Source of the DNA: a virus
Taxonomy: Duplodnaviria; Heunggongvirae; Uroviricota; Caudoviricetes
Strand: one strand, 5' to 3'
Virus record (IMG/VR): IMGVR_UViG_2690316346_000006
Location: 1-13,493 of that record
Length of the DNA stretch: 13,493 bases
The position numbers and the translations under genes were made by a program. The notes below the pieces were generated by a model. That model saw only the letters and a list, made by a program, of their open reading frames with translations. It had not been told where the DNA came from and made no database searches. Below are positions 1-13,493 of the stretch, piece after piece (the stretch's first letter is position 1; every line of letters begins with the position of its first letter).

Positions 1-51
1 ATCGGGCATTATCTGAACATAAAACACTATCAATAAGTTGGAGTCATTACC
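1..51 (+). mobile_element. IS1 terminal fragment (insB-proximal end including the terminal inverted repeat); body of the element lies upstream of the window
   Basis: Positions 1-51 are the exact reverse complement of 9926-9976 and 13443-13493, and match the remembered IS1 end ...CATCGGGCATTATCTGAACATAAAACACTATCAATAAGTTGGAGTCATTACC. Confidence 0.85.
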
Positions 52-183
52 AAACGGTTGAAATGTATGCCGCTACTTACGGGTCCTGTAATCCTCTGAA
101 TAAACCAGAGGGAAAAGATGATTTCGACAAAATTTACCGCTTCTTGGAGGACCGCTATATCAAAAGCTTAGAGGACGCAGGGA

Positions 184-561
184 TCAAATCCCCAGTGAAG
201 TCACCATTGTCCTGAGAACTTGCAGAACGTCATGATCATAACTTCCATCCAAACCGCGACGGCGAATTGCTTCTCGTATTACCGGAAGCAGTTCGCTGGA
301 AATCTCGGTGCATATTTCACCTGATAATACGCTTGGCTCAAGTGAGAATATTGGTGAACTTACGGTCTTGGTCTCGACAGTTTCAGAGTCAGTGCCAACA
401 TTATAAAGCTCAACGAAAGCGGTCTTGATTTTCCGGGCCAGATCTTTTGCTGGCTCGCTTGCAATATCTTTCCCGATTTCTCGCAGCACAGAATGCAATG
501 TATGAGCTGCTGTTTTCTGTACATCAGACGGTAAATCTTTAAATTCCATCGTCAGCCTCAT
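184..561 (-). CDS. hypothetical protein, 125 aa, second gene of a coupled two-gene operon
   Basis: ORF track. Its ATG (559-561) overlaps the stop of the upstream ORF (561-563) as ATGA on the minus strand. An alternative ATG at 547-549 has a GAGG 8 nt upstream. No recognisable motif. Confidence 0.5.
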   Translation of the reverse strand: MRLTMEFKDLPSDVQKTAAHTLHSVLREIGKDIASEPAKDLARKIKTAFVELYNVGTDSETVETKTVSSPIFSLEPSVLSGEICTEISSELLPVIREAIRRRGLDGSYDHDVLQVLRTMVTSLGI

Positions 562-767
562 CAGTCAGTGTTTCTGGCTAACCAGCAACGCGCGCCAGAT
601 TCGGTTTTAAACGTTTTGCTTTTGGTATACGTCATGGCGGTAAACGTTCCATCCTGGTTAGGGAACACGCCGCACACCAGAGATTCGTTGTTGCCAAGAT
701 CGATAGTATCCATGCTGACCTCATTTCCCCTTAACGCCGGGGTGGCGGAACAAAAAACCTGCTGCAT
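561..767 (-). CDS. small hypothetical protein (68 aa as listed; more likely about 50 aa from the internal ATG at 711-713)
   Basis: The internal ATG is preceded on the minus strand by TGAGGTcagcATG, a good Shine-Dalgarno; the listed start at 767 has none. Coupled via ATGA to the downstream ORF. Confidence 0.45.
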   Translation of the reverse strand: MQQVFCSATPALRGNEVSMDTIDLGNNESLVCGVFPNQDGTFTAMTYTKSKTFKTESGARCWLARNTD

Positions 768-953
768 AGTTAAAGATTGAACCCTGCCGTCATGTTCTTA
801 CGCCTCGGGCTGGCTACTTAACCCCTGACCACTGTCTGGTAACTCGAAGTATTGCCCTGCATTCTGTGGGGCGGGGTGGGTTGACGCCTGAAACAATAGC
901 ATCATTATTTTTTTTGATGTAAATAGCATCGCTATTGTTTTTTGTTGGGGCAA

Positions 954-976
954 GAAAAAACCACCCTAAGGTGGTT
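954..976 (-). terminator. rho-independent terminator for the minus-strand repressor/antitoxin/toxin transcript
   Basis: Plus strand reads aaaaaACCACCctaaGGTGGTT. On the minus strand this is a 7-bp stem with a 4-nt loop followed by a U-run, about 20 bp after the ParE-like stop at 993. Confidence 0.55.
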
Positions 977-992
977 CTGTCGGCGGGAATAA

Positions 993-1283
993 TTAACTGT
1001 TTTTGCCTGGATACTGTCTTCGAGAATGCACAATATTTACTACTTCTATGCTTGATGCTGTTACTCGGTAAAGGATGATGTAGTTAGGATGAGTTACAAT
1101 TTCACGAAGACCAAGAACTCGCTCGCTTGGAGGATACAGGTAAGGATGCTCTGTGAGCGGCAAAACGGATGTTTCAATTCGAATTTTCATTCTGCGTGCT
1201 GCCGCGGGATTTTCTTTAGCTATGTAGGCTACGATCTGGCGCAAATCATCACGAGCAGATGGTAGCCATAAAACGGGTAACAT
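993..1283 (-). CDS. parE: type II toxin, ParE/RelE superfamily
   Basis: 96 aa; sequence pattern (LPVLWLPSARDDL ... REIVTHPNYIILYRV ... VVNIVHSRRQYP) is typical of ParE-family toxins. Start overlaps the antitoxin stop (TAATG on the minus strand). Confidence 0.75.
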   Translation of the reverse strand: MLPVLWLPSARDDLRQIVAYIAKENPAAARRMKIRIETSVLPLTEHPYLYPPSERVLGLREIVTHPNYIILYRVTASSIEVVNIVHSRRQYPGKNS

Positions 1284-1477
1284 TATTCACCTCTGTGAGT
1301 TGCAGCAGCAATTTGGGCAATAATTTGTTCCATTTCCGCCATTACCTCATCATGCGGAATCGCCGGGCGGGGATCCGCGAGGCTTGCTGCTACTTTGGCC
1401 CGCAGCCATTCGTTGTAACTATTTTCTTGCTCAACTGTCTCAAATTCTGAAACCATTGGGGAAAGGACTGTACTCAT
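1283..1477 (-). CDS. paaA: small antitoxin, PaaA2-like, partner of the ParE-like toxin
   Basis: 64 aa, directly upstream of and overlapping the toxin gene. Segment SPMVSEFETVEQENSYNEWLRAKVAASLADPRPAIPHDEV matches my recollection of PaaA2 from the O157 paaR2-paaA2-parE2 system. AGGAGA lies 10 nt upstream of the ATG. Confidence 0.65.
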   Translation of the reverse strand: MSTVLSPMVSEFETVEQENSYNEWLRAKVAASLADPRPAIPHDEVMAEMEQIIAQIAAATHRGE

Positions 1478-1496
1478 TTTACATATCTCCTCTGAT

Positions 1497-1997
1497 TTAG
1501 GCGCGACGGCCTTTTTGTGCAGCTAACCACCGCGCAACCGTACGATCCATTGATTCTTTTTTATCTTTCATCTCCTGAAGCATGTGTTCTTGATCTTCTT
1601 TCGGAAAAGCTCTGAACGTATGGATTAAATCTCGTTCCATCGGCTCTACGGCAAACGGTAGTTCATCCTCTGTTTGTTCTGTGTCTGCTGGTAATGCGAC
1701 TATGTTATCTTGCTGTGGTTCTCGACAATACATCCTTGCAATTTGCAGCAAATCTACCATGTCTGGCCTGATTGACTCAGGGGGAACTTTCAGTAAGCCA
1801 GCAAACTTTAGAACAGCCTCAAGGTTTAGTGGGGTTTGACCATTTAGGTAGTGACTTACCGCCCCTTGTGTTGAAAACCCCATAATTTCCGCCGCACGTT
1901 CCTGAGTCAATCCCAACTGAGATTTCTTTGCCATCCAGATTTCTTTCAGTCTTCTGGCGGCGTTGAGGTCGGTGTCTGACAATGATTTTCTTTTCAT
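1497..1997 (-). CDS. cI-like HTH (XRE-family) repressor, probably PaaR2/RacR-like; ORF track extends to a GTG at 2027
   Basis: HTH motif region QLGLTQERAAEIMGFSTQGAVSHYLNG. Sits divergent to a Cro-like gene with a palindromic operator between them. The ATG at 1995-1997 (MKRKSL...) is favoured over the GTG at 2027, which has no Shine-Dalgarno. Confidence 0.7.
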   Translation of the reverse strand: MKRKSLSDTDLNAARRLKEIWMAKKSQLGLTQERAAEIMGFSTQGAVSHYLNGQTPLNLEAVLKFAGLLKVPPESIRPDMVDLLQIARMYCREPQQDNIVALPADTEQTEDELPFAVEPMERDLIHTFRAFPKEDQEHMLQEMKDKKESMDRTVARWLAAQKGRRA

Positions 1998-2027
1998 ACA
2001 TCCAATTCTAATAAGATTGCTAATCAC

Positions 2028-2108
2028 TTTGAAATAGTATCACTATTTACTTTTAAAAATAACAGTGCTATTAATTATGCATTGGTAACACATCACATAG
2101 GGCGGATT
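2028..2108. promoter_or_regulatory. divergent promoter/operator region between the repressor and the Cro-like gene; contains the palindrome AAATAGT-atc-ACTATTT (2032-2048)
   Basis: AT-rich 81-bp intergenic region between divergently oriented HTH genes. A perfect 7-bp inverted repeat with a 3-bp spacer is read directly from the sequence. Confidence 0.55.
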
Positions 2109-2372
2109 ATGAATCTTGGAGAATATTTGCATCATTTTCATATAACCCAGAGTTCATTTGCTGAGATTGTTGGCGCATCCCAAGGGATGGTCAGCCACGT
2201 TATAACGGGGCGTGCAAAACTTACAGGAGAAAAAATATTACGTTGGTGTGAAGCAACGGGATGGGTGGTGACCCCACATGAGATTGACAGTAAAACCTAC
2301 CCCAACCCAACTGACGGCTTGCCTGCTGAGTTTCAGGCTAACACACAACCATCGGCGGGGGTTGATTCATGA
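2109..2372 (+). CDS. ydaS: Cro-like HTH regulator (YdaS-like); ORF track start 2082, internal ATG at 2109 preferred
   Basis: HTH motif region ITQSSFAEIVGASQGMVSHVITG. Divergent from the repressor. GGGCGG lies 5 nt upstream of the ATG at 2109. Confidence 0.65.
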   Translation: MNLGEYLHHFHITQSSFAEIVGASQGMVSHVITGRAKLTGEKILRWCEATGWVVTPHEIDSKTYPNPTDGLPAEFQANTQPSAGVDS

Positions 2373-2794
2373 AAATCAAGCATGAACACATCCGCATGGC
2401 GATGAAAGCCTGGGCGCATCCGGACGGTGAAAAAGTTCCGGCAGCTGAAATAACCAGGGTTTATTTCGAACTGGGAATGACGTTTCCGGTTCTGCATAAC
2501 GACAGCAAGCACAACACGCTTTATCTCAACACCCAAAAGATTTTCCGTTGGCTGGATAAAGACACCCCTGACGCTGTTGAAAAAATTCAGGCGTTGTTAC
2601 CTGCGATCGAAAGGGCAATGCCACCTCCGCTGGTGGCTCGAATGCGCAGCCACAGTTCAGCTTATTTTCGGGAACTGGTGGAGACGCATGAACGACTGGT
2701 GAGAGACGCTGATGATTTTGTCGCAGTGGCAATCGCCGGTTTCAATCAGATGAACCGTGGTGGCCCGGCAGGAAATGCTGTGGCAGTACATTGA
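2369..2794 (+). CDS. ydaT: YdaT-like protein (proposed CII-like switch component in Rac-type prophages)
   Basis: 141 aa beginning MKIKHEH..., which matches my recollection of the YdaT N-terminus. Start overlaps the Cro-like stop (ATGA), indicating coupling. Confidence 0.5.
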   Translation: MKIKHEHIRMAMKAWAHPDGEKVPAAEITRVYFELGMTFPVLHNDSKHNTLYLNTQKIFRWLDKDTPDAVEKIQALLPAIERAMPPPLVARMRSHSSAYFRELVETHERLVRDADDFVAVAIAGFNQMNRGGPAGNAVAVH

Positions 2795-2865
2795 CTGACA
2801 ATAGCCATATCGAATCGCTCCCGGCAACTCGTGAGTAAAAAGATTCGGTATCAGAAGAGGTGAGT

Positions 2866-3930
2866 ATGGCTAACGCCTGGCTCAGATTATGGCATGACAT
2901 GCCAAATGACCCTAAGTGGCGAACAATTGCCAGGGTGTCAGGGCAGCCAATTGCAACAGTGATGGCAGTGTATATCCACCTCCTGGTGAGCGCGTCACGA
3001 AATGTCACGCGAGGTCACATTGATGTCACGACAGAAGATTTGGCAAGTGCGCTCGACGTGACAGAAGAGGTAATTGATTCAATTTTGCAGACGATGCAGG
3101 GGCGGGTACTTGATGGTGATTTAATCACTGGATGGGAAAAACGCCAGGTGCTTAAAGAGGACAACGGCAATATTTCGCAAACCGCAAAATCTCCTGCAGA
3201 GCGCAAGAGGGCGCAGCGAGAGAGGGAAAGAAAGCGGGAACAAAATGGCGATTGTCACGGCGCGTCACGAAATGTCACGCACATGTCACGACGAGTCACG
3301 ACAGATACAGATAAAGATACAGATAAAGAAGATCAAAACACTATGGTCCATGGCGTAAAAAACGCCACGAACCAGGCAGGGGATGTTCAGACCGTCAATC
3401 CTGGTCAGCCAGCAGGCTCGACACCGGAAGCCGATTCAGCGTATGCGCTGAAAGCCGATTCGGGCGCTGTGCAGCAGGTGATGACCGCAAGGCCGGAGCA
3501 ATCACTCCAACTGCAGCAGCCTGAAGCCGATTCCGCCATTCAGCGGGAAGCCGATCGGGTAGCCCCGGAAAACACCGGGCAGCCTGTGGGACGAGTGGAT
3601 TATCCGGATGTGTTCGAACAGGTCTGGCGGGAATACCCGTTGCGTGCCGGGGCAAACCCGAAGAAATCCGCATTCAGTGCCTGGAAGGCCAGATTGCGCG
3701 AGGGGGTGCCACCAGAGACCATGCTGGATGGTGTGAGGCGTTACGCGAGATACCTGGCGGCGACCGGGAAAGCGGGAACGGAATTTGTTCAGCGAGCGAC
3801 GACGTTTTTTGGGCCGGACCGGAATTTTGAAAACCCCTGGTTGCTCCCGGTAAGCGGCACGAACAACCAGCGTTGTGTGAATCATATTTCTGAACCGGAT
3901 ACCGAAATTCCGCCGGGATTCAGGGGGTGA
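2866..3930 (+). CDS. phage replication initiator 1 (O-like / YdaU-like), with origin iterons embedded in the coding sequence
   Basis: ATG at 2866 preceded by GAGGTG (track start GTG 2860). Lies immediately upstream of a DnaC-like gene. Contains two clusters of GTCACG direct repeats. C-terminus ends IPPGFRG, as in the second initiator. Confidence 0.7.
   Translation: MANAWLRLWHDMPNDPKWRTIARVSGQPIATVMAVYIHLLVSASRNVTRGHIDVTTEDLASALDVTEEVIDSILQTMQGRVLDGDLITGWEKRQVLKEDNGNISQTAKSPAERKRAQRERERKREQNGDCHGASRNVTHMSRRVTTDTDKDTDKEDQNTMVHGVKNATNQAGDVQTVNPGQPAGSTPEADSAYALKADSGAVQQVMTARPEQSLQLQQPEADSAIQREADRVAPENTGQPVGRVDYPDVFEQVWREYPLRAGANPKKSAFSAWKARLREGVPPETMLDGVRRYARYLAATGKAGTEFVQRATTFFGPDRNFENPWLLPVSGTNNQRCVNHISEPDTEIPPGFRG
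2993..3030 (+). repeat. iteron cluster 1 of putative origin 1: four GTCACG/GTCAC repeats at 10-11 bp spacing
   Basis: Repeats begin at 2993, 3003, 3014 and 3025, read directly from the sequence. Confidence 0.6.
3254..3300 (+). repeat. iteron cluster 2 of putative origin 1: five GTCACG repeats at 10-11 bp spacing, followed by an ACAGATA-rich AT-rich stretch
   Basis: Repeats begin at 3254, 3264, 3274, 3285 and 3295. The roughly 45-bp unit is near-identical to cluster 1. Confidence 0.6.
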
Positions 3931-3936
3931 TGTGGC

Positions 3937-4683
3937 ATGAAAAACATTGCGGCAGCCGGGGTTCTTGAACGTATTCACAGACTTGCACCACAGGGGGCGG
4001 TTCCACCGTACCGGACGGTGGAGGAGTGGCGGGAATGGCAACTTGCTGAAGGACGAAAACGCAGCGAGGAGATTAACCGCCAGAATCGCCAGTTGCGGGT
4101 GGAAAAAATCCTGAATCGTTCGGGCATCCAGCCTCTGCACAGCAAATGCTCGTTTGCGAATTATCAGGTGCAGAACGACGGGCAAAAATACGCGCTGAGC
4201 CAGGCCAAATCCATAGCTGACGAACTGATGACCGGGTGCACGAATTTTGTGTTCAGCGGTAAAACCGGCACCGGGAAAAATCACCTTGCAGCGGCGATGG
4301 GTAACCGGCTGATGGCGAAGGGGCGCAGCGTGATTATCGTCACCGAGTCTGATGTCATGAGCGTGTTGCATGACAGCTACGACAACGGCAAATCCGGTGA
4401 AAAATTTTTACAGGAGCTTTGCGGGGTTGATTTGCTGGTCCTGGATGAAATAGGCATTCAGCGGGAGACGAAAAACGAGCAGGTGGTATTGCACCAGATA
4501 ATTGATCGCCGGACAGCATCACTGTGCAGTGTCGGGATGTTAACAAACCTGAATCATGCCGCAATGAGCACGCTTCTTGGTGAGAGGATTATGGACCGCA
4601 TGACCATGAACGGTTGTCGGTGGGTGACGTTTAACTGGGATAGCTGGCGTTCAAATGTCAGCTTTCCGGGAGTTGTGAAGTAA
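3937..4683 (+). CDS. DnaC-like helicase loader (YdaV-like), copy 1
   Basis: 248 aa with Walker A-like SGKTGTGKNHLAAA and Walker B-like DLLVLDEIG, as in DnaC. Follows the initiator with 6-bp spacing. Confidence 0.85.
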   Translation: MKNIAAAGVLERIHRLAPQGAVPPYRTVEEWREWQLAEGRKRSEEINRQNRQLRVEKILNRSGIQPLHSKCSFANYQVQNDGQKYALSQAKSIADELMTGCTNFVFSGKTGTGKNHLAAAMGNRLMAKGRSVIIVTESDVMSVLHDSYDNGKSGEKFLQELCGVDLLVLDEIGIQRETKNEQVVLHQIIDRRTASLCSVGMLTNLNHAAMSTLLGERIMDRMTMNGCRWVTFNWDSWRSNVSFPGVVK

Positions 4684-4704
4684 TTTTTGTTGGAGGATGT
4701 TTTA

Positions 4705-5430
4705 ATGGAAACTGTATTTGACGCACTGAAAGCACTGAAAAGAGCCTCTTCACATGTGGTGGCGTCCCGCCTTGGAATCAGCCGTGAAGATGCGGTCAAC
4801 GAACTGTGGAAACTGAAGCGCCGTGGTGAAGCGGATAACAAGGGTTCGATGTGGTGGCTGATTCAGGCTGGTGAAAGTGAACCAGTGTCACCGGTACCGA
4901 AAGTGACAGCGCAAATGCTGACTGAGGCGATTGAACAACATGGCCCACAAACGGCGGATGAGCTGGCACTGATGTTCGGGATTACCTCCCGCCGGGCGAA
5001 TTCATCGCTGGCCATGGCAATCAGCAAAGGGCGTCTGATTCGCGTGAATCAGGGCGGTAAATTTCGGTACTGCATACCGGGCGCTGATTTACCGGCAGAG
5101 CCGAAAGCCGCATCCATAGCGGAAACGGATGGTAAAGTCTTTCCTCAGCCAGCAGGTGTTGCGTTACCGGTACAGGAAGCTGCAACACAGGAAGAAATTA
5201 AAACAGAAACTGTGGCGGACATTGTGCAGTCGTTGCCATCGTTCACCGAAACGCAAGCGGATGACCTGGTTTTACCATCGCTGCATATGGCAAACCGCGA
5301 ACTGCGTCGGGCGAAAAGTCATGTCCAGAAGTGGGAGCGTGTCTGCGCCGCGTTGCGGGAGCTGAACAAGCACCGGGATATTGTTCGACAGATTGTCGAT
5401 TCCTCCGGTCGTATTGTGTCGGAAAAGTGA
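4705..5430 (+). CDS. hypothetical protein, possibly YdaW-like; present only in module 1
   Basis: ORF track lists a TTG start at 4687; the ATG at 4705 has GGAGG 8 nt upstream. No catalytic motif recognised. Confidence 0.55.
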
Positions 5431-5445
5431 TTGCCGGGGGCGCTT

Positions 5446-5868
5446 ATGGCAAAAGTATTTACACAGGAAGAGCGGGAAAAAATTAAGGGGCAGGTTGTTG
5501 AACTCGTACGCCAGAGTGGGCGCGAGACGTTACGACAACTGGAAGCTAAAACCGGGGCGACAAGATATTTAATAAGCGTTCTCGCCAGAGAGCTGGTTGC
5601 CAGTGGGGATGTATACAACTCTGGCTACGGGTTATTCCCGTCTGAACAGGCTCGTAAGGACTGGCAAAACGCCCGCAAAAAACTCTCGAGGGCAAAGCTG
5701 AAGAAACCATCTGTGGTTGATCCGGACCTTATCTGGTCATTACCGGACGGAGAAATACGCCGCTACGACAGACATCAGAACATAATCTGTCGCGAGTGCC
5801 GGAAGAGTGAAGTTATGCAGCGTGTACCGGCTTTCTATCAGGGTGATTTTCAGGAGGCGGTACTGTGA
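5446..5868 (+). CDS. hypothetical protein (about 140 aa), paralog of 9117-9539
   Basis: ATG at 5446 preferred over the listed TTG at 5431. The C-terminal ~90 aa are near-identical to the 9117-9539 product; the N-terminal ~50 aa are diverged. Confidence 0.6.
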   Translation: MAKVFTQEEREKIKGQVVELVRQSGRETLRQLEAKTGATRYLISVLARELVASGDVYNSGYGLFPSEQARKDWQNARKKLSRAKLKKPSVVDPDLIWSLPDGEIRRYDRHQNIICRECRKSEVMQRVPAFYQGDFQEAVL

Positions 5869-6282
5869 GTGAAATTAGCTATCAGGCTTCAATTACCGCT
5901 GGCATTCGCATCAAAGGAGAGGAGCATGGAAATAAAACCAGAAGATGAGTTAAGCAATATTGTTTTATTTCCGGTAAAAGAGGATAACCCTCGTAATCAG
6001 GTTAATTTTCTTTATGAGCCATCGGAAAGACCATATTGCCATCACGCTTCTGTCCGGGTTGACGAAAAAGAGCGTCAGGTCCGCTGTAAAATCTGCGGTG
6101 CGGTTGTGGAGCCGTTTGACTGGATGCTCTCTGTGGCGAAAAGAGAAACCAGACTGGCAGATGATGTAAGGCTCTTGCGCCAGGAGGAGCGGGAAAGGCG
6201 AAAAAATATAGAAAAGCTAATCCAGATTGAGCGTAACGCGAAAGCGCGGATACGCAGGGCGACAAAATCCAGAACTGAATAA
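5869..6282 (+). CDS. hypothetical small protein with a putative zinc-ribbon motif (C-H-H ... C-x2-C); copy A
   Basis: Listed start is GTG at 5869. An internal ATG at 5926 has a strong Shine-Dalgarno (AAGGAGaggagcATG) and gives 118 aa. Motif YCHHASVRVDEKERQVRCKICG. Two further copies lie at 9540-9925 and 10695-11035. Confidence 0.6.
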   Translation: MKLAIRLQLPLAFASKERSMEIKPEDELSNIVLFPVKEDNPRNQVNFLYEPSERPYCHHASVRVDEKERQVRCKICGAVVEPFDWMLSVAKRETRLADDVRLLRQEERERRKNIEKLIQIERNAKARIRRATKSRTE

Positions 6283-6309
6283 TTAAATTTAGCACTGTTA
6301 AAAATTTAA
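6283..6309. repeat. AT-rich palindrome TTAAATTT-N11-AAATTTAA immediately after the stop of the zinc-ribbon gene; repeated at 11036-11062
   Basis: Read directly from the sequence; present after copies A and C, and homology between them ends just beyond it. Confidence 0.4.
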
Positions 6310-6421
6310 TCCTTAATAACCTTTTTATTCTTTGCCACGGGTTCCGTGGCGGGAGATTATGCCGCGTGAACATGAAGATGAGGTGTACTGGCAATAGCGG
6401 ACACTACCATTTGTTCTTTTT

Positions 6422-7240
6422 TTAAGCAGCCATCTGATGATATTTTTCCCTGAAGGCTGCCGGGGAGATATTCCCCAGACGAGAGTGACGACGCTGACGA
6501 TTGTAGAAAATCTCAATGTATTCCCGTATTACTGAGATGGCTTCATCCCGGTTATTAAAACGATAGTGGCTCAGGCTCTCATTTTTCAGCGTTCCCCAGA
6601 AGCTTTCCATCGGAGCGTTGTCGTAACAGTTACCTTTACGCGACATTGATGTTTTCAGACCAGACTGCTCCTGTATGACCCGGTAATCGTATGCGCAGTA
6701 CTGTGAACCTCGATCAGAGTGGTGGATTAGCCCGGCAGGTGGGCGCTGGCTCCTGAGCGCCATAAACAGGGCTTTACCTGTCAGCTCTTTTGTCATGCGC
6801 TCTCCCATGGCGTAGCCGACAATTTCGCACGTATAAACATCTTTGATGCCAGCGAGGTACAACCATCCCTCCTGTGTGGCAACATACGTCAGGTCCGCCA
6901 CCCAGACCTGATTTGGTGCTGTAGGAGCGAACGTCTGGTTCAGCAGATTTGGCGCAACTGGCAGATTGTGGTTCGAGTTCGTAGTCGCTCTGAACTTGCG
7001 TTTCTGCTTACAGCGTAGCCTTAGCTCCTTACGAAGACGTGCCAGTCGGTCACGACCAACGATGATGCCATTCTCTGCCAGCTCCGTCTGGAGCCGCCGG
7101 GTTCCATATGTTTCGCGAGTGCGGATATGTGCCACCTTAATCTCCAGTTTTAGCCGCTCATCACTTTGTTTTCTGTCTGAGGGTTCATGCTGTACCCAGT
7201 TGTAATAACCGCTCCTGGATACACCAAATACCTGACACAT
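6422..7240 (-). CDS. IS3-family transposase OrfB (DDE catalytic part), expressed as an OrfAB fusion by -1 frameshifting
   Basis: 272-aa ORF with DDE-type transposase signatures (HSDRGSQY ... conserved acidic residues) in the -1 frame relative to orfA. Confidence 0.8.
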   Translation of the reverse strand: MCQVFGVSRSGYYNWVQHEPSDRKQSDERLKLEIKVAHIRTRETYGTRRLQTELAENGIIVGRDRLARLRKELRLRCKQKRKFRATTNSNHNLPVAPNLLNQTFAPTAPNQVWVADLTYVATQEGWLYLAGIKDVYTCEIVGYAMGERMTKELTGKALFMALRSQRPPAGLIHHSDRGSQYCAYDYRVIQEQSGLKTSMSRKGNCYDNAPMESFWGTLKNESLSHYRFNNRDEAISVIREYIEIFYNRQRRHSRLGNISPAAFREKYHQMAA

Positions 7241-7275
7241 CGCTTCAATGGGAAATTGTTGTCGCCATTGTTCGA

Positions 7276-7578
7276 TTAACGCGTATTTTTCAGCGACTCC
7301 TGTGCAAAATACGCTGTTGCTTTTTTTAATATATCTCGCTCAAGGCGAGCTTCATTTAACGCCTTACGCAGTTGCAGAATTTCAGATTCCAGTTCAGCCA
7401 CCGTGCGGGAACCAGGAGTACCGAGCCCTTTTCTGGCGGCGGTAACCCATTGTCCTAAAGTGCCTTCAGGAAGAGATAATCGGGAAGCGCCTTCACTGAT
7501 CGAAAGTTGATTTTCAAGAACCGTTCTGACAGCTTCGGCTTTGAACTCTTTAGAGTAACGTTGGGTTTTTCTGCTCAT
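7276..7578 (-). CDS. IS3-family transposase OrfA (HTH part)
   Basis: 100 aa, MSRKTQRYSKEFKAEAVRTV..., which I recognise as IS600/IS3-group OrfA. Confidence 0.8.
   Translation of the reverse strand: MSRKTQRYSKEFKAEAVRTVLENQLSISEGASRLSLPEGTLGQWVTAARKGLGTPGSRTVAELESEILQLRKALNEARLERDILKKATAYFAQESLKNTR
7320..7327 (-). promoter_or_regulatory. programmed -1 ribosomal frameshift site (A AAA AAG) within the orfA/orfB overlap of the IS3-family element
   Basis: Minus-strand sequence TTAAAAAAAGC lies where orfA and orfB overlap, as is typical of IS3-family elements. Confidence 0.6.
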
Positions 7579-7698
7579 TATTAGCTCCTTCTGATGCCAT
7601 TCTATTTCAGGAAGGAGTGTCCGTTAAACTCAGGCTACCTCAGGTTATTCGCTTCTGGGCATGGGCGGATCAACAAATGATAGACGGTAATGCAGATT

Positions 7699-7950: not shown

Positions 7951-7952
7951 AG

Positions 7953-8000
7953 AGGAAGAGGAAGAGGAAGAGGAAGAGGAAGAGGAAGAGGAAGAGGAAG
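7953..8000 (+). repeat. perfect tandem hexanucleotide repeat (AGGAAG)8; encodes Glu16 in the frame that appears to be coding for the initiator 2 linker
   Basis: 48 bp of uninterrupted AGGAAG units counted directly from the sequence. Confidence 0.9.
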
Positions 8001-8355
8001 ATCTAAATACTGATCTCCCCCTCGCCAAAAACGAGCGTCTAAAAAATTCGAGCCGGAGGCTATTGAGCTGCCCGATTGGTTGCCGGAAACACTCTGGCAT
8101 GAGTGGGTCCGGTTCAGACAGGCATTGCGAAAACCGATTCGAACGGAGCAGGGCGCTAACGGGGCGATACGGGAACTGGAAAAATTCCGTCAGCAGGGTT
8201 TTACACCTGAGCAGGTGATTCGACACAGCATCGCCAATGAATACCAGGGCCTGTTCGCGCCGAAAGGTGTTCGGCCTGAGACGTTGCTCCGACAGGTTAA
8301 CACCGTCTCGTTGCCGGACAGTGCGATCCCGCCAGGCTTCAGGGGGTAACGGACC

Positions 8356-9102
8356 ATGAAAAATATTGCGACAGGCGGCGTTCTGGAACGCATCCGCCGA
8401 CTGACCCCGCCACATGTAACCGCCCCATTCAGAACGGTAGCGGAGTGGCGCGAGTGGCAACTTGCTGAAGGCCAGAAACGTAGCGAGGAGATCAACCGCC
8501 TGAATCGCCAGTTGCGGGTGGAAAAAATTCTGAATCGCTCAGGCATCCAGCCGTTGCACCGTAAATGCTCGTTTGCGAATTACCAGGTGCAGAACGACGG
8601 CCAGCGATACGCGTTAAGCCAGGCGAAATCCATCGCCGATGAACTGATGACCGGGTGTACAAATTTTGCGTTCAGCGGAAAACCTGGTACCGGGAAGAAT
8701 CACTTAGCGGCAGCTATCGGGAATCGCCTGCTGAAAGACGGTCAGACAGTGATTGTGGTTACCGTGGCTGATGTTATGAGCGCCCTGCACGCCAGCTATG
8801 ACGACGGGCAGTCAGGCGAAAAATTTTTGCGGGAGCTGTGCGAAGTGGATCTGCTGGTTCTTGATGAAATTGGCATTCAGCGCGAGACGAAAAACGAGCA
8901 GGTGGTGCTGCACCAGATTGTTGATCGCCGGACAGCGTCGATGCGCAGCGTGGGGATGCTGACAAACCTGAACTATGAGGTGATGAAAACATTGCTCGGC
9001 GAGCGGGTGATGGATCGCATGGTCATGAACGGCGGGCGCTGGGTGAATTTTAACTGGGAGAGCTGGCGTCCGAATGTTAGCCATTCGAGGGTTGTTAAGT
9101 AG
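8356..9102 (+). CDS. DnaC-like helicase loader, copy 2 (roughly 85% amino-acid identity to copy 1 by eye)
   Basis: 248 aa with SGKPGTGKNHLAAA and DLLVLDEIG motifs; same length and architecture as 3937-4683. Confidence 0.85.
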   Translation: MKNIATGGVLERIRRLTPPHVTAPFRTVAEWREWQLAEGQKRSEEINRLNRQLRVEKILNRSGIQPLHRKCSFANYQVQNDGQRYALSQAKSIADELMTGCTNFAFSGKPGTGKNHLAAAIGNRLLKDGQTVIVVTVADVMSALHASYDDGQSGEKFLRELCEVDLLVLDEIGIQRETKNEQVVLHQIVDRRTASMRSVGMLTNLNYEVMKTLLGERVMDRMVMNGGRWVNFNWESWRPNVSHSRVVK

Positions 9103-9116
9103 TTTCAGGAGGATTT

Positions 9117-9539
9117 ATGGCGAAACCTTTTACTCCCGAACAGCGGGAAGAACTGAAGACGCGAATTGTGGAACTCGTGCATCAGGACGGTCGGGTCACG
9201 ATTCGGCAGTTGTCAGATGAAACAGGTATCAGTCGTGCGTCTGTCGGTCGCTTATGCATAGAACTGGTCGCAAGTGGTGATGTATATAATTCTGGCTACG
9301 GCTTATTCCCGTCTGAACAGGCTCGCAAGGACTGGCAAAGCGCCCGCAAAAAACTCTCGAGAGTAAAGGTGAGGAAACCGGTTGTTGTTGATCCGGACCT
9401 TATCTGGTCATTACCTGACGGAGAAATACGCCGCTACGACAGGCGCCTGAATATAATCTGTCGCGAGTGCCGGAAGAGCGAAGCTATGCAGCGTGTACTG
9501 GCTTTCTATCAGGGTAATTTTCAGGAGGCGATACTGTGA
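9117..9539 (+). CDS. hypothetical protein, paralog of 5446-5868 with a diverged N-terminus
   Basis: 140 aa; C-terminal region (ELVASGDVYNSGYGLFPSEQARKDWQ ... IICRECRKSE ...) nearly identical to copy 1. Confidence 0.6.
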   Translation: MAKPFTPEQREELKTRIVELVHQDGRVTIRQLSDETGISRASVGRLCIELVASGDVYNSGYGLFPSEQARKDWQSARKKLSRVKVRKPVVVDPDLIWSLPDGEIRRYDRRLNIICRECRKSEAMQRVLAFYQGNFQEAIL

Positions 9540-10007
9540 ATGAAATTAGCTATCAGGCTTCAATTACCGCTGGCATTCGCATCAAAGGAGAGGAGCATGG
9601 AAATAAAACCAGAAGATGAGTTAAGCAATATTGTTTTATTTCCGGTAAAAGAGGATAACCCACGTAATCAGGTTAATTTTCTTTATGAACCATCGGAAAG
9701 ACCATATTGCCATCACGCCTCTGTCCGGGTTGACGAAAAAGAGCGTCAGGTCCGCTGTAAAATTTGCGGTGCAGTTGTGGAGCCATTTGACTGGATGCTC
9801 TCTGTGGCGAAAAGAGAAACCAGACTGGCAGATGATGTAAGGCTATTGCGCCAGGAGGAACAGGAAAGGCGGAGAAATATAGAAAAGCTGATACAGATTG
9901 AGCGTAACGCGAAAGCGCGGATACGCGGTAATGACTCCAACTTATTGATAGTGTTTTATGTTCAGATAATGCCCGATGACTTTGTCATGCAGCTCCACCG
10001 ATTTTGA
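9540..10007 (+). pseudogene. zinc-ribbon small gene copy B, 3'-truncated at 9925 by IS1; the ORF reads on into IS1, giving a chimeric 26-aa tail
   Basis: Homology to copy A ends exactly at the IS1 end (...gcgcggatacgc|ggtaatgac). Translation continues ...ARIR then [26 protein letters not shown] from the IS1 sequence. Confidence 0.7.
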
Positions 10008-10445
10008 GAACGACAGCGACTTCCGTCCCAGCCGTGCCAGGTGCTGCCTCAGATTCAGGTTATGCCGCTCAATTCGCTGCGTATATCGCTTGCTGATTAC
10101 GTGCAGCTTTCCCTTCAGGCGGGATTCATACAGCGGCCAGCCATCCGTCATCCATATCACCACGTCAAAGGGTGACAGCAGGCTCATAAGACGCCCCAGC
10201 GTCGCCATAGTGCGTTCACCGAATACGTGCGCAACAACCGTCTTCCGGAGACTGTCATACGCGTAAAACAGCCAGCGCTGGCGCGATTTAGCCCCGACAT
10301 AGCCCCACTGTTCGTCCATTTCCGCGCAGACGATGACGTCACTGCCCGGCTGTATGCGCGAGGTTACCGACTGCGGCCTGAGTTTTTTAAGTGACGTAAA
10401 ATCGTGTTGAGGCCAACGCCCATAATGCGTGCAGTTGCCCGGCAT
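9942..10445 (-). CDS. insB: IS1 InsB (expressed as an InsAB' fusion by frameshifting)
   Basis: 167 aa, ...[62 protein letters not shown]..., recognised as IS1 InsB. Confidence 0.9.
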
Positions 10446-10639
10446 CCAACGCCATTCATGGCCATATCAATGATTTTCTGGTGCGTACCGGGTTGAGAAG
10501 CGGTGTAAGTGAACTGCAGTTGCCATGTTTTACGGCAGTGAGAGCAGAGATAGCGCTGATGTCCGGCAGTGCTTTTGCCGTTACGCACCACCCCGTCAGT
10601 AGCTGAACAGGAGGGACAGCTGATAGAAACAGAAGCCAC
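10364..10639 (-). CDS. insA: IS1 InsA
   Basis: 91 aa, [42 protein letters not shown]..., recognised as IS1 InsA. Confidence 0.9.
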
Positions 10640-10694
10640 TGGAGCACCTCAAAAACACCATCATACACTAAATCAGTAAGTTGGCAGCATCACC

Positions 10695-11035
10695 AAGATG
10701 AGTTAAGCAATATCGTTTTATTTCCGGTAAAAGAGGATGACCCTCGTAATCAGGTTAATTTTCTTTATGAGCCATCGGAAAGACCATATTGCCATCACGC
10801 CTCTGTACGGGTTGACGAAAAAGAGCGTCAGGTCCGCTGTAAAATCTGCGGTGCGGTTGTGGAGCCGTTTGACTGGATGCTCTCTGTGGCAAAAAGAGAA
10901 ACCAGACTGGCAGATGATGTAAGGCTATTGCGCCAGGAGGAACAGGAAAGGCGGAGAAATATAGAAAAGCTGATACAGATTGAGCGTAACGCGAAAGCGC
11001 GGATACGCAGGGCGACAAAATCCAGAACTGAATAA
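10695..11035 (+). pseudogene. zinc-ribbon small gene copy C, 5'-truncated (lacks the first ~5 codons); mosaic of copies A and B
   Basis: Begins abruptly at the IS1 end with aagatgagttaagc..., matching codon 6 onward of copy A. Its 5' half carries copy-A-type variants and its 3' half copy-B-type variants. Stop at 11033-11035. Confidence 0.65.
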
Positions 11036-12857: not shown

Positions 12858-13195
12858 AAGGAAACAAAACAGAAACAGCAATTGCCGTTACCTGTTGTTA
12901 CCATGGCAAGTAAACGTATCTCAGGCGAGCGCATTGCGCCGTTCTGACGCAGATAAACTAGCCTGGATAGATGGTGCTGGCAATAAAAAATAGCGTTTTC
13001 TTATCGGTGTCGGTAAGATTGCTGCGGGTGCTTGAGGCTGTCTGCCTCGGGTATGTCACTGTAAGGCAGACAGAGAAAAGCCCCAGTTAACATTACGCGT
13101 CCTGCAAGACGCTTAACATTAATCTGAGGCCCAATCTATGTCTCACAAATGTAGGTTAGCCTCTTACGTGCCGAAAGGCAAGGAGAAGCAGGCTA

Positions 13196-13350
13196 TGAAG
13201 CAGCAAAAGGCGATGTTAATCGCCCTGATCGTCATCTGTTTAACCGTCATTGTGACGGCACTGGTAACGAGGAAAGACCTCTGCGAGGTACGAATCCGAA
13301 TCGGCCAGACGGAGGTCGCTGTTTTCGTAGACTACGAATCTAGAGAGTAA
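13196..13350 (+). CDS. hok: Hok/Gef-family type I toxin (closest by memory to HokD/RelF or HokC)
   Basis: MKQQKAMLIALIVICLTVIVTALVTRKDLCEVRIRIGQTEVAVFVDYESRE; AAGGAG lies 9 nt upstream of the ATG at 13196. The ORF track extends in frame to an ATG at 13138. Confidence 0.85.
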
Positions 13351-13442: not shown

Positions 13443-13493
13443 GGTAATGACTCCAACTTATTGATAGTGTTTTATGTTCAGATAATGCCCGAT
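13443..13493 (-). mobile_element. IS1 terminal fragment (insB-proximal end), element in minus orientation with its body downstream of the window
   Basis: Identical to 9926-9976 and the exact reverse complement of 1-51. Confidence 0.85.

What the first reader, a model, noticed from the sequence alone, without database searches (positions are those of the whole stretch)
993..2027. Three-component repressor-antitoxin-toxin unit embedded in the prophage immunity region
The cI-like repressor is followed on the same strand, with a 19-bp gap, by a small PaaA2-like antitoxin and a ParE-family toxin whose start overlaps the antitoxin stop, then a terminator. This is the position that rexAB occupies relative to cI in lambda. 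The layout matches what I recall of the paaR2-paaA2-parE2 system of O157 cryptic prophages, where the regulator is part of a CI/Cro/CII-like switch with YdaS and YdaT. Here the complete switch and toxin module is preserved while the flanking prophage is riddled with insertion sequences, consistent with addiction-type retention.
Basis: partly seen in the sequence, partly recalled or inferred. Interest (0 to 1): 0.6.

Follow-up and report, generated by a model that had tools for sequence, protein, structure and literature searches.

The report
Prophage repressor with PaaA–ParE toxin–antitoxin cargo
This is a real but already well-understood kind of unit: a dormant virus in a Shigella sonnei-type chromosome expresses a ParE toxin and its PaaA antidote from the same transcript as its master repressor, as published for E. 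coli O157:H7, except that this copy has a different DNA-recognition specificity.

Summary
Three same-strand genes lie on the minus strand: repressor (1497-1997), PaaA antitoxin (1283-1477) and ParE toxin (993-1283). A 19-bp gap, a 1-nt stop/start overlap and a terminator hairpin (about 950-981) are all present. PaaA and ParE match Pfam PaaA2 (3e-23) and ParE_toxin (2e-17), and the solved O157 PaaA2/ParE2 structures (1e-23, 7e-37). They are closer to the O157 paaA1/parE1 paralogue (77% and 86%) than to paaA2/parE2 (75% and 67%). ydaS, ydaT and an exact copy of the published YdaT operator (2362-2379) complete the CI/Cro/CII-like switch.

Corrections:
- The repressor most likely starts at ATG 1997 (166 aa, probably leaderless), not GTG 2027.
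- It is not a PaaR2 orthologue throughout. Only its last ~45-64 residues match PaaR1/PaaR2 (52-56%). Its DNA-binding domain resembles lambda CI.
- Its operators (AATAG-N5-CTATT, three at OR and two at OL) differ from those of CP-933P.

It is therefore a heteroimmune member of the known paaR-paaA-parE family, with identical proteins already in RefSeq. The addiction argument is plausible (dN/dS about 0.05-0.09) but unproven, because 6.2 kb of neighbouring prophage is equally intact. Interest is low.

The parts
993..1283 (-). parE: ParE-family toxin, 96 aa
   Evidence: Pfam ParE_toxin 1.8e-17, full length. PDB ParE2 5cw7 E = 6.7e-37. 86% identical to the O157 ParE of the paaR1-type locus and 67% to ParE2. 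dN/dS 0.05-0.06. SD GAGGTG 6 nt upstream of the ATG.
1283..1477 (-). paaA: PaaA2-family antitoxin, 64 aa, no DNA-binding domain
   Evidence: Pfam PaaA2 PF21217 3e-23. NCBIfam NF050103 3.3e-27. PDB PaaA2 3zbe 1.4e-23. 77% to PaaA1-type and 75% over 56 aa to PaaA2. dN/dS 0.05-0.14.
1497..1997 (-). Prophage repressor (CI analogue), 166 aa: lambda-CI-like HTH N-domain, acidic linker, PaaR/DicA-type C-terminal domain
   Evidence: HTH_3 9e-9, no Peptidase_S24. Lambda CI N-domain 1lmb 2.5e-9. C-terminal 64 aa 56% to PaaR1-type and 44 aa 52% to PaaR2. DicA C-terminus 29%, E = 2e-6.
950..981 (-). Intrinsic terminator ending the repressor-paaA-parE transcript
   Evidence: RNA fold -15.1 kcal/mol, z = -2.73. 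Conserved in homologues.
2005..2033 (-). PRM-like promoter TTCAAA-17-TAGAAT; predicted start at or next to ATG 1997 (leaderless)
   Evidence: Promoter scan. Geometry read from the sequence. PaaR2 and lambda cI are leaderless (PMC8630535). No RNA data here.
2010..2072 (.). OR: three 15-bp operators AATAG-N5-CTATT at 2010-2024 (2 mismatches), 2033-2047 (0) and 2058-2072 (1); centres 23 and 25 bp apart
   Evidence: Pattern search: 13 matches against 4.8 expected, and all matches with 1 mismatch or fewer lie here or at OL. Half-sites are conserved while the central 5 bp vary in an 83%-identical homologue.
2046..2074 (+). PR-like promoter TTTACT-17-(TGC)TATTAA driving ydaS-ydaT; its extended -10 lies inside operator 2058-2072
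   Evidence: Read from the sequence. Inferred.
893..936 (-). OL/PL: two operators (895-909, 922-936) with a leftward promoter candidate TTTACA-19-(TGC)TATTGT towards ydfA
   Evidence: Same operator/-10 overlap as at PR. The 19-nt spacer is suboptimal. Inferred.
2109..2372 (+). ydaS: Cro analogue, 87 aa
   Evidence: HTH_3. phrog_35 transcriptional repressor 8e-17. 36% to the paaR1-type YdaS and no hit to the CP-933P-type YdaS.
2369..2794 (+). ydaT: CII analogue, 141 aa
   Evidence: Pfam YdaT_toxin 5e-9. phrog_163 CII-like activator 3e-40. 77-81% to the O157/O26 YdaT proteins.
2362..2379 (.). YdaT operator OM, TTGATTCATGAAAATCAA, at the ydaS/ydaT junction
   Evidence: Only exact match in the window to the published TTGATT-N6-AATCAA site (PMC9986795). 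The surrounding 45 bp are identical in the paaR1- and paaR2-type loci.
561..767 (-). ydfA-like DUF1391 gene, first gene of the leftward (PL) operon
   Evidence: Pfam DUF1391 3e-28. In K-12 Qin, ydfA follows dicA directly with no toxin-antitoxin pair between them.

Best explanation
This is the immunity operon of a Qin/CP-933-like lambdoid prophage remnant in a Shigella sonnei-type chromosome, and it carries a paaA-parE type II toxin-antitoxin pair as cargo. It is a heteroimmune member of the published paaR-paaA-parE family.

Proposed mechanism:
- A PRM-like promoter (2033->2005) gives a probably leaderless mRNA for the 166-aa repressor. paaA and parE are co-transcribed with it, and the transcript ends at the hairpin at about 950-981.
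- The repressor has a lambda-CI-like HTH N-domain and a PaaR/DicA-type C-terminal oligomerisation domain, with no S24 peptidase domain. It binds 15-bp AATAG-N5-CTATT operators at OR (three sites) and OL (two sites).
- Binding shuts off PR (ydaS-ydaT-replication genes) and PL (ydfA and onward) and autoregulates PRM.
- YdaS acts as Cro. YdaT acts as CII through its conserved TTGATT-N6-AATCAA site and gives a second route to repressor/TA expression.
- PaaA has no DNA-binding domain and neutralises ParE by direct binding. If the locus is lost or silenced, labile PaaA decays and ParE poisons the cell, which stabilises the immunity region.

Shown here: the gene identities, homologies, layout, operator motifs, terminator and purifying selection. 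Inferred from the O157 work: leaderless translation, operator occupancy, bistability, toxicity and addiction.
For: - Family and structure matches.
- Direct comparison with the O157 paaR1-type locus (L002) and with the exact CP-933P-type paaR2-paaA2-parE2 locus (L004, ParE2 100% identical to PDB 5cw7).
- DNA homology to the paaR1-type locus runs unbroken from ydfA through parE, paaA and the last ~43 repressor codons (570-1624). It is lost across 1625-2297 (repressor N-domain, OR, ydaS 5' part) and resumes through ydaT. This is the classic immunity-cassette swap.
- Operator motif is enriched and clustered at OR and OL, and its half-sites are conserved in a diverged homologue.
- Promoter position relative to ATG 1997.
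- Terminator.
- Exact YdaT operator.
- dN/dS 0.05-0.14 for parE and paaA.
- No Peptidase_S24 domain.
- Published mechanism for the family: PMC8630535 and PMC9986795.
- In complete E. coli genomes, 842 of 5426 carry a paaA homologue. All 45 sampled matches, spread over the ranking, cover paaA plus at least the adjoining end of the repressor gene (its C-terminal domain), and the match totals are identical for the parE+paaA and paaA+repressor queries. 72 genomes carry this immunity type in full, always with the toxin-antitoxin pair.
Against: - No expression, binding or toxicity data exist for this locus.
- The third OR site has 2 mismatches, and the PL candidate has a 19-nt spacer.
- The O157 study detected no ParE2 activity under any expression state, so the physiological role of the pair remains open even in the model system.
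- PADLOC shows no defence-system match.
- The neighbouring 6.2 kb is equally well preserved, so preservation is not specific evidence for addiction.
Confidence: 0.85

Rival explanations
1. It is a dedicated tripartite toxin-antitoxin system. The repressor would be essentially the detached DNA-binding half of the antitoxin (a split antitoxin) whose main job is to control paaA-parE, not to act as a prophage master repressor.
For: - PaaA lacks any DNA-binding domain.
- In E. coli genomes, all 45 sampled paaA matches also cover the adjoining end of the repressor gene, its C-terminal-domain-coding part.
- From my memory of Hallez et al. 2010 (not checked here), full repression of the O157 operon needed both PaaR2 and the PaaA2-ParE2 complex.
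Against: - Operators of the same motif lie at a distant OL/PL site controlling ydfA, and at PR controlling ydaS-ydaT and the replication genes.
- The repressor sits exactly where dicA sits in Qin, which has no toxin-antitoxin pair.
- paaA-parE pairs in most of 36 non-enteric loci have no PaaR-like neighbour.
- The O157 authors reached the same conclusion.
Confidence: 0.08
2. The paaA-parE pair serves mainly as a superinfection-exclusion or abortive-infection module, as rexAB does in lambda, and not as an addiction module.
For: It occupies the rexAB position and is expressed in the lysogenic transcript. Many prophage cargo genes and some toxin-antitoxin systems protect against phages (general knowledge).
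Against: No PADLOC defence-model match for any of the three proteins. The published evidence for this family is plasmid stabilisation/addiction. No phage data exist.
Confidence: 0.1
3. The locus is an inert relic: genes that merely have not yet decayed in an IS-ridden prophage, with no current function.
For: The prophage is fragmented by IS1 and an IS3-family element and has rearranged replication modules. ParE2 activity was undetectable in O157.
Against: - All five genes are intact.
- ParE, PaaA and YdaS are 100% identical, and the repressor 99.4% identical, to those of a seemingly complete E. coli prophage.
- dN/dS is 0.05-0.2 against diverged homologues with saturated dS.
- Operators, promoters, terminator and the YdaT site are all intact.
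Confidence: 0.05

Closest known systems
paaR2-paaA2-parE2 with ydaS-ydaT of cryptic prophage CP-933P/Sp12, E. coli O157:H7 (PMC8630535; PDB 5cw7, 3zbe, 7nkv)
   Same: - Same gene order and strands.
- Position between the leftward ydfA-type operon and ydaS-ydaT-O.
- PaaA2-family antitoxin without a DNA-binding domain.
- ParE toxin.
- Repressor without an S24 peptidase domain.
- Homologous repressor C-terminal domain (52% over 44 aa).
- YdaT 77% identical, with an identical OM operator.
- Promoter placed for a leaderless repressor mRNA.
   Different: - ParE only 67% and PaaA 75% (over 56 aa) identical.
- The repressor N-domain is unrelated at sequence level: lambda-CI-like, with no hit to the PaaR2 N-domain structure.
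- 166 aa against 123 aa.
- YdaS has no detectable similarity.
- Operators are AATAG-N5-CTATT instead of the GTTTAGTAA-based repeats.
- Intergenic region 111 bp against 97 bp.
The second O157:H7 paralogue (paaR1-paaA1-parE1 type; locus L002 in strain TR01)
   Same: Closest characterised-family relative of the toxin-antitoxin pair: ParE 86%, PaaA 77%, repressor C-terminal 64 aa 56%, YdaT 81%. DNA homology is continuous from ydfA to the repressor C-terminal domain.
   Different: Different repressor N-domain, operators and YdaS N-terminal part (36% identity). I assigned it to 'paaR1' by exclusion, because it is not the MQKKE PaaR2 or the PDB ParE2, and not from a paper read here.
Lambda cI-rexA-rexB immunity operon
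   Same: - The repressor N-domain is homologous to the lambda CI N-domain (E = 2.5e-9).
- The repressor is followed on the same transcript by two lysogen-expressed cargo genes.
- Divergent PRM/PR with three operators, and a distant OL.
- Probably a leaderless repressor mRNA.
   Different: - No S24/LexA-like autocleavage domain, so no RecA-mediated induction is expected.
- The cargo is a toxin-antitoxin pair and not rexAB.
- Cro and CII are replaced by unrelated YdaS and YdaT.
- Only two OL sites were found.
DicA-DicC of the K-12 Qin prophage
   Same: Same chromosomal and prophage architecture: repressor, then ydfA-ydfB-ydfC...dicB. Related repressor C-terminal domain (29%, E = 2e-6). The S. 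sonnei loci lie beside ynfF/dmsC-type genes, consistent with my recollection of where Qin lies in K-12, though this was not checked here.
   Different: Qin has no toxin-antitoxin pair between dicA and ydfA. The DicA NCBIfam score is far below cut-off (32 against 101 bits).

Membership tests
PaaA2 antitoxin family (Pfam PF21217) | Sequence match above the curated threshold, and homology to the solved PaaA2 structure | tested here: met
   81.9 bits against a cut-off of 27. PDB 3zbe E = 1.4e-23, with residues 4-45 almost identical.
PaaA2 antitoxin family (Pfam PF21217) | Small protein lacking a DNA-binding domain, encoded immediately upstream of parE | tested here: met
   64 aa, and PaaA2 is the only Pfam domain found. 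The stop overlaps the parE start by 1 nt.
PaaA2 antitoxin family (Pfam PF21217) | Neutralises its cognate ParE and is proteolytically labile | not testable with these tools
   Needs co-expression and stability assays.
ParE toxin family (Pfam PF05016) | Full-length match above threshold, and homology to the ParE2 structure | tested here: met
   64.1 bits against 23, profile positions 1-89 of 89. 5cw7 E = 6.7e-37.
ParE toxin family (Pfam PF05016) | Toxic to the host when not neutralised | not testable with these tools
   Only indirect support: intact ORF and dN/dS about 0.05.
paaR-paaA-parE three-component systems of lambdoid prophages | Regulator-antitoxin-toxin on one strand as one apparent operon, in the immunity region opposite ydaS-ydaT and upstream of an O-like gene | tested here: met
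   A single terminator follows parE. The same layout is seen in L002 and L004.
paaR-paaA-parE three-component systems of lambdoid prophages | Regulator homologous to PaaR in its C-terminal domain | tested here: met
   52% over 44 aa to PaaR2 (E = 4e-15) and 56% over 64 aa to the PaaR1 type (E = 6e-23).
paaR-paaA-parE three-component systems of lambdoid prophages | Regulator orthologous to PaaR2 in its DNA-binding domain, with the same operators (same immunity) | tested here: not met
   No similarity to PaaR2 residues 1-79. PaaR2 N-domain structures 7nkv/8c3k are not hit by the window protein, which hits lambda CI instead. The operator motif differs.
paaR-paaA-parE three-component systems of lambdoid prophages | Leaderless regulator mRNA from PRM | tested here: inconclusive
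   The -10 hexamer ends 7 nt before ATG 1997 and no SD is present. No transcript mapping.
paaR-paaA-parE three-component systems of lambdoid prophages | YdaT (CII analogue) with its TTGATT-N6-AATCAA operator at the ydaS/ydaT junction | tested here: met
   Exact site at 2362-2379. YdaT is 77-81% identical. Site definition from PMC9986795.
paaR-paaA-parE three-component systems of lambdoid prophages | Post-segregational killing / plasmid stabilisation | not testable with these tools
   Reported for RAE2 in PMC8630535.
Lambda CI-type repressors | HTH N-terminal domain homologous to the lambda CI N-domain | tested here: met
   1lmb/1rio E = 2.5e-9 over residues 1-81 of the 166-aa protein.
Lambda CI-type repressors | C-terminal S24 (LexA-like) autocleavage/dimerisation domain | tested here: not met
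   No Peptidase_S24 hit. The C-terminus is PaaR/DicA-like.
DicA (NCBIfam NF007257) | Whole-protein score above the curated cut-off | tested here: not met
   32 bits against a cut-off of 101. Only the C-terminal 57 residues match.

The most novel reading that the evidence does not exclude
The ~45-residue C-terminal domain of the repressor may be the docking point through which the PaaA-ParE complex, which has no DNA-binding domain of its own, feeds back on transcription. If so, the C-terminal domain, paaA and parE would form one co-evolving unit that can be plugged onto different DNA-binding domains. The domain travels with paaA-parE across at least three heteroimmune DNA-binding domains: PaaR2, the PaaR1 type, and the lambda-CI-like one here. 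This would explain why the recombination breakpoints fall inside the repressor gene (about 1562-1624) instead of at its end.
Probability: 0.12. Interest if true: 0.5.

Novelty: new member of a known kind. Interest (0 to 1): 0.2.

Why it matters
It matters little on its own. The system type, its CI/Cro/CII-like wiring, the rexAB-position argument and the addiction hypothesis are all published for E. coli O157:H7. The exact proteins here are already in RefSeq for Shigella sonnei and E. coli, under generic names.

The modest added value is comparative:
- The same toxin-antitoxin pair, repressor C-terminal domain, YdaT and YdaT operator are combined with a third, lambda-CI-like immunity specificity.
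- The operators of that specificity can be read from the sequence.
- This gives a natural heteroimmune partner for testing the published idea that the toxin-antitoxin pair polices recombination within immunity regions.
- It would also allow RefSeq's generic 'RelB family antitoxin' and 'helix-turn-helix protein' names to be replaced with specific ones.

Tried and rejected
- The simple terminator scan did not list the parE-distal terminator. Folding showed it is there.
- PADLOC gave no defence-system hit for the three proteins, so a defence-island reading was not pursued.
- Rfam found no RNA family inside 993-2108. Its only hit is sok, far away at 13026-13200.
- The plus-strand ORFs inside the locus (1089-1265, 1259-1450, 1681-1839) were treated as antisense artefacts of the three well-supported minus-strand genes.
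- The first O157 locus I fetched (L002) turned out not to be paaR2-paaA2-parE2, because its ParE is not the PDB sequence. The true PaaR2 type was found in an O26:H11 genome (L004; ParE2 100% identical to PDB, PaaR2 starts MQKKE, 97-bp intergenic region, as in the paper).
- The genome-contig scan with a PaaA alignment returned no Enterobacteriaceae. It returned Alpha- and Betaproteobacteria, which carry paaA-parE without any PaaR or YdaT. This is informative about the cassette's mobility but not about this locus.
- The phage collection holds only one record with the module, phage Evi, of the PaaR2 type.
- The sequence-level matches were already decisive.
Full report
**1. The observation**

The ORF list and the raw sequence show three consecutive minus-strand genes:
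- a 96-aa ORF at 993-1283;
- a 64-aa ORF at 1283-1477, whose TAA stop shares one base with the downstream ATG (TAATG);
- after a 19-bp spacer carrying a GAGGAG ribosome-binding site, an HTH protein ending at 1497.

Downstream of the 96-aa ORF, the minus-strand RNA folds into AGAACCACC-UUAG-GGUGGUUUU followed by UUCUUG (-15.1 kcal/mol, z = -2.7). The consensus terminator scan missed it because part of the U-tract can pair into the stem. The hairpin is conserved in homologous E. coli loci, with a change only in the loop. The described anatomy is therefore real.

The one correction is the repressor start. RefSeq annotates 166 aa in the homologues. The 166-aa N-terminus lines up with residue 3 of lambda CI. 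A TTCAAA-17-TAGAAT promoter-like site ends 7 nt upstream of ATG 1997.

**2. What the proteins are**

- The 96-aa protein matches Pfam ParE_toxin end to end (1.8e-17). The 64-aa protein matches Pfam PaaA2 (3e-23) and NCBIfam NF050103 (3.3e-27).
- Against solved structures, the toxin hits E. coli O157 ParE2 (5cw7, E = 6.7e-37) and the antitoxin hits PaaA2 (3zbe, E = 1.4e-23).
- The regulator carries an HTH_3 domain and no S24 peptidase domain.
- Its first ~90 residues are homologous to the lambda CI N-terminal domain (E = 2.5e-9). Its last ~57 residues match the C-terminus of DicA, far below the DicA family cut-off.
- Opposite lie an 87-aa HTH protein (ydaS-like, 2109-2372) and a 141-aa YdaT-family protein (2369-2794). 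PHROGs labels the latter a CII-like activator.
- An O-like replication initiator and a DnaC-like loader follow.

**3. Direct comparison with the published system**

I fetched two reference loci from complete E. coli genomes.
- **L004 (O26:H11)** carries ParE2 100% identical to the PDB sequence, a 123-aa regulator starting MQKKE, and a 97-bp intergenic region. These are exactly the features reported for paaR2-paaA2-parE2 of CP-933P.
- **L002 (O157:H7 TR01)** is the other O157 paralogue.

| Window protein | vs paaR1-type locus (L002) | vs paaR2-type locus (L004) |
|---|---|---|
| ParE | 86% | 67% |
| PaaA | 77% | 75% over 56 aa |
| YdaT | 81% | 77% |
| Repressor | 56% over the last 64 residues only | 52% over the last 44 residues only |
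| YdaS | 36% | no hit |

At DNA level, homology to L002 runs unbroken from ydfA through parE, paaA and the last ~43 codons of the repressor gene (570-1624). It disappears across 1625-2297 and resumes in the 3' part of ydaS and in ydaT. That is the textbook pattern of an exchanged immunity cassette in lambdoid phages: repressor DNA-binding domain, operators and the cro 5' half.

The solved PaaR2 N-domain (7nkv, 8c3k) is found with PaaR2 as query but not with the window repressor.

**4. Regulatory sites**

- **Operators.** A 15-bp palindrome, AATAG-N5-CTATT, occurs with 0-1 mismatch only at 2033-2047 and 2058-2072 (between the divergent genes) and at 895-909 and 922-936 (between the terminator and ydfA). 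A 2-mismatch copy lies at 2010-2024 (13 matches against 4.8 expected, and none of 200 shuffles reached 13).
- **Footprint.** In an 83%-identical homologue the half-sites are kept while the central 5 bp vary, a phylogenetic footprint of half-site recognition.
- **OR layout.** The OR sites are 23 and 25 bp apart centre to centre. The rightmost lies within a PR-like promoter, TTTACT-17-(TGC)TATTAA. The middle one abuts the PRM -35 and the leftmost overlaps the PRM -10. This mirrors lambda OR1-OR3 by inference.
- **OL layout.** The OL pair has the same operator/extended -10 relationship, TTTACA-19-(TGC)TATTGT.
- **YdaT site.** The published YdaT operator, TTGATT-N6-AATCAA, is present exactly once, at 2362-2379 on the ydaS/ydaT junction, as in CP-933P. 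The surrounding 45 bp are identical in all three immunity types.

**5. Where it comes from and how common it is**

- Window 1-6286 is 99.8% identical to chromosomes recorded as Shigella sonnei (e.g. HE616528), where the locus lies beside ynfF/dmsC-type genes. From memory, not checked here, that is where Qin lies in K-12.
- The three proteins exist verbatim in the public collections, named only generically.
- In K-12 Qin, dicA is followed directly by ydfA. Here paaA-parE sit between the repressor and ydfA.
- Among 5426 complete E. coli genomes, 842 carry a paaA-parE homologue. All 45 sampled matches, spread over the ranking, cover paaA plus at least the adjoining end of the repressor gene, and the match totals are the same whether parE+paaA or paaA+repressor is the query. 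72 genomes carry this immunity type in full, always with the toxin-antitoxin pair.
- Outside the enterics, paaA-parE pairs at 45-80% antitoxin identity occur in Bartonella, Acetobacteraceae, Sphingomonadales and Burkholderiales. None has a PaaR- or YdaT-like neighbour. The pair is therefore a mobile two-gene cassette that has been captured in this prophage operon.
- dN/dS against diverged homologues is 0.05-0.14 for parE and paaA, with dS above 1. This indicates purifying selection.

**6. How it most likely works**

By homology with the experimentally dissected O157 locus (PMC8630535; PMC9986795):
- The repressor maintains the prophage-off state by binding OR and OL, and it autoregulates PRM.
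- paaA and parE ride on the same transcript.
- YdaS counteracts the repressor, as Cro does. YdaT provides CII-like activation.
- PaaA neutralises ParE by direct binding. Loss of the locus would free ParE.
- Lacking an S24 domain, the repressor should not be RecA-cleavable.

None of these activities was or could be tested here.

**7. The addiction argument**

Insertion sequences are indeed frequent: IS1 ends at both window edges, a complete IS1 at 9927-10694, and an IS3-family element at 6379-7643. But the intact block spans 6.2 kb, including the replication genes, and not just the switch and toxin. S. sonnei is also clonal. Preservation is compatible with addiction but does not demonstrate it.

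**8. Verdict**

This is a correct reading of a known kind of system. The novelty is limited to a third immunity specificity attached to the conserved C-terminal domain/paaA/parE/ydaT backbone. Interest is low (0.2).

Noticed in passing
window 13026-13350 (+): A second, unrelated toxin-antitoxin system. An Rfam sok antisense RNA lies at 13026-13200 (118 bits, gathering score 59), overlapping a hok-like ORF (51 aa from ATG 13195, MKQQKAMLIALIVICLTVIV...).
   Followed up: partly
window 1-51, 6379-7643, 9927-10694, 13443-13493: The window is an inter-IS segment. IS1 ends lie at both edges, with a complete 768-bp IS1 and a ~1.26-kb IS3-family (IS600-like) element inside. All are 100% identical to copies in S. 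sonnei genomes.
   Followed up: partly
window 3907-4686 vs 8326-9105; 5586-6255 vs 9257-9926; 9613-9926 vs 10695-11008: Two paralogous prophage replication modules (DnaC-like, DUF977, zinc-ribbon genes) at 78-94% identity. The same ~314 bp is found on both sides of the internal IS1. This suggests IS-mediated recombination between two prophages and not a simple insertion.
   Followed up: no
window 3253-3329: Iteron-like tandem repeats (TGTCACGACA x5, then AGATACAGATAA x2.2) inside the O-like replication initiator gene. This is probably the prophage origin.
   Followed up: no
window 7951-8001: A perfect (AGAGGA)x8.5 hexamer repeat in the truncated second O-like region. It reads as a poly-Ser run on the opposite strand.
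   Followed up: no
loci L013-L048 (genome contigs): paaA-parE pairs with 45-80% identical antitoxins occur in Bartonella (many species), Acetobacter/Gluconobacter/Komagataeibacter, Sphingomonadales, Paracoccus and Burkholderiales. They have no PaaR or YdaT neighbour and usually no obvious upstream regulator. How a DNA-binding-domain-less antitoxin is regulated there is unclear.
   Followed up: partly
window 2340-2400; L002 4731-4790; L004 4201-4260: The YdaT operator and the first ~45 bp of ydaT are identical in three heteroimmune loci, whereas the ydaS bodies are unrelated. The right-hand recombination boundary of the immunity cassette therefore lies just upstream of this site.
   Followed up: partly
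L049 (Escherichia phage Evi, LR597642.1) 1470-2333: A sequenced phage record carries the PaaR2-type regulator and paaA. The parE ORF downstream appears unannotated.
   Followed up: no
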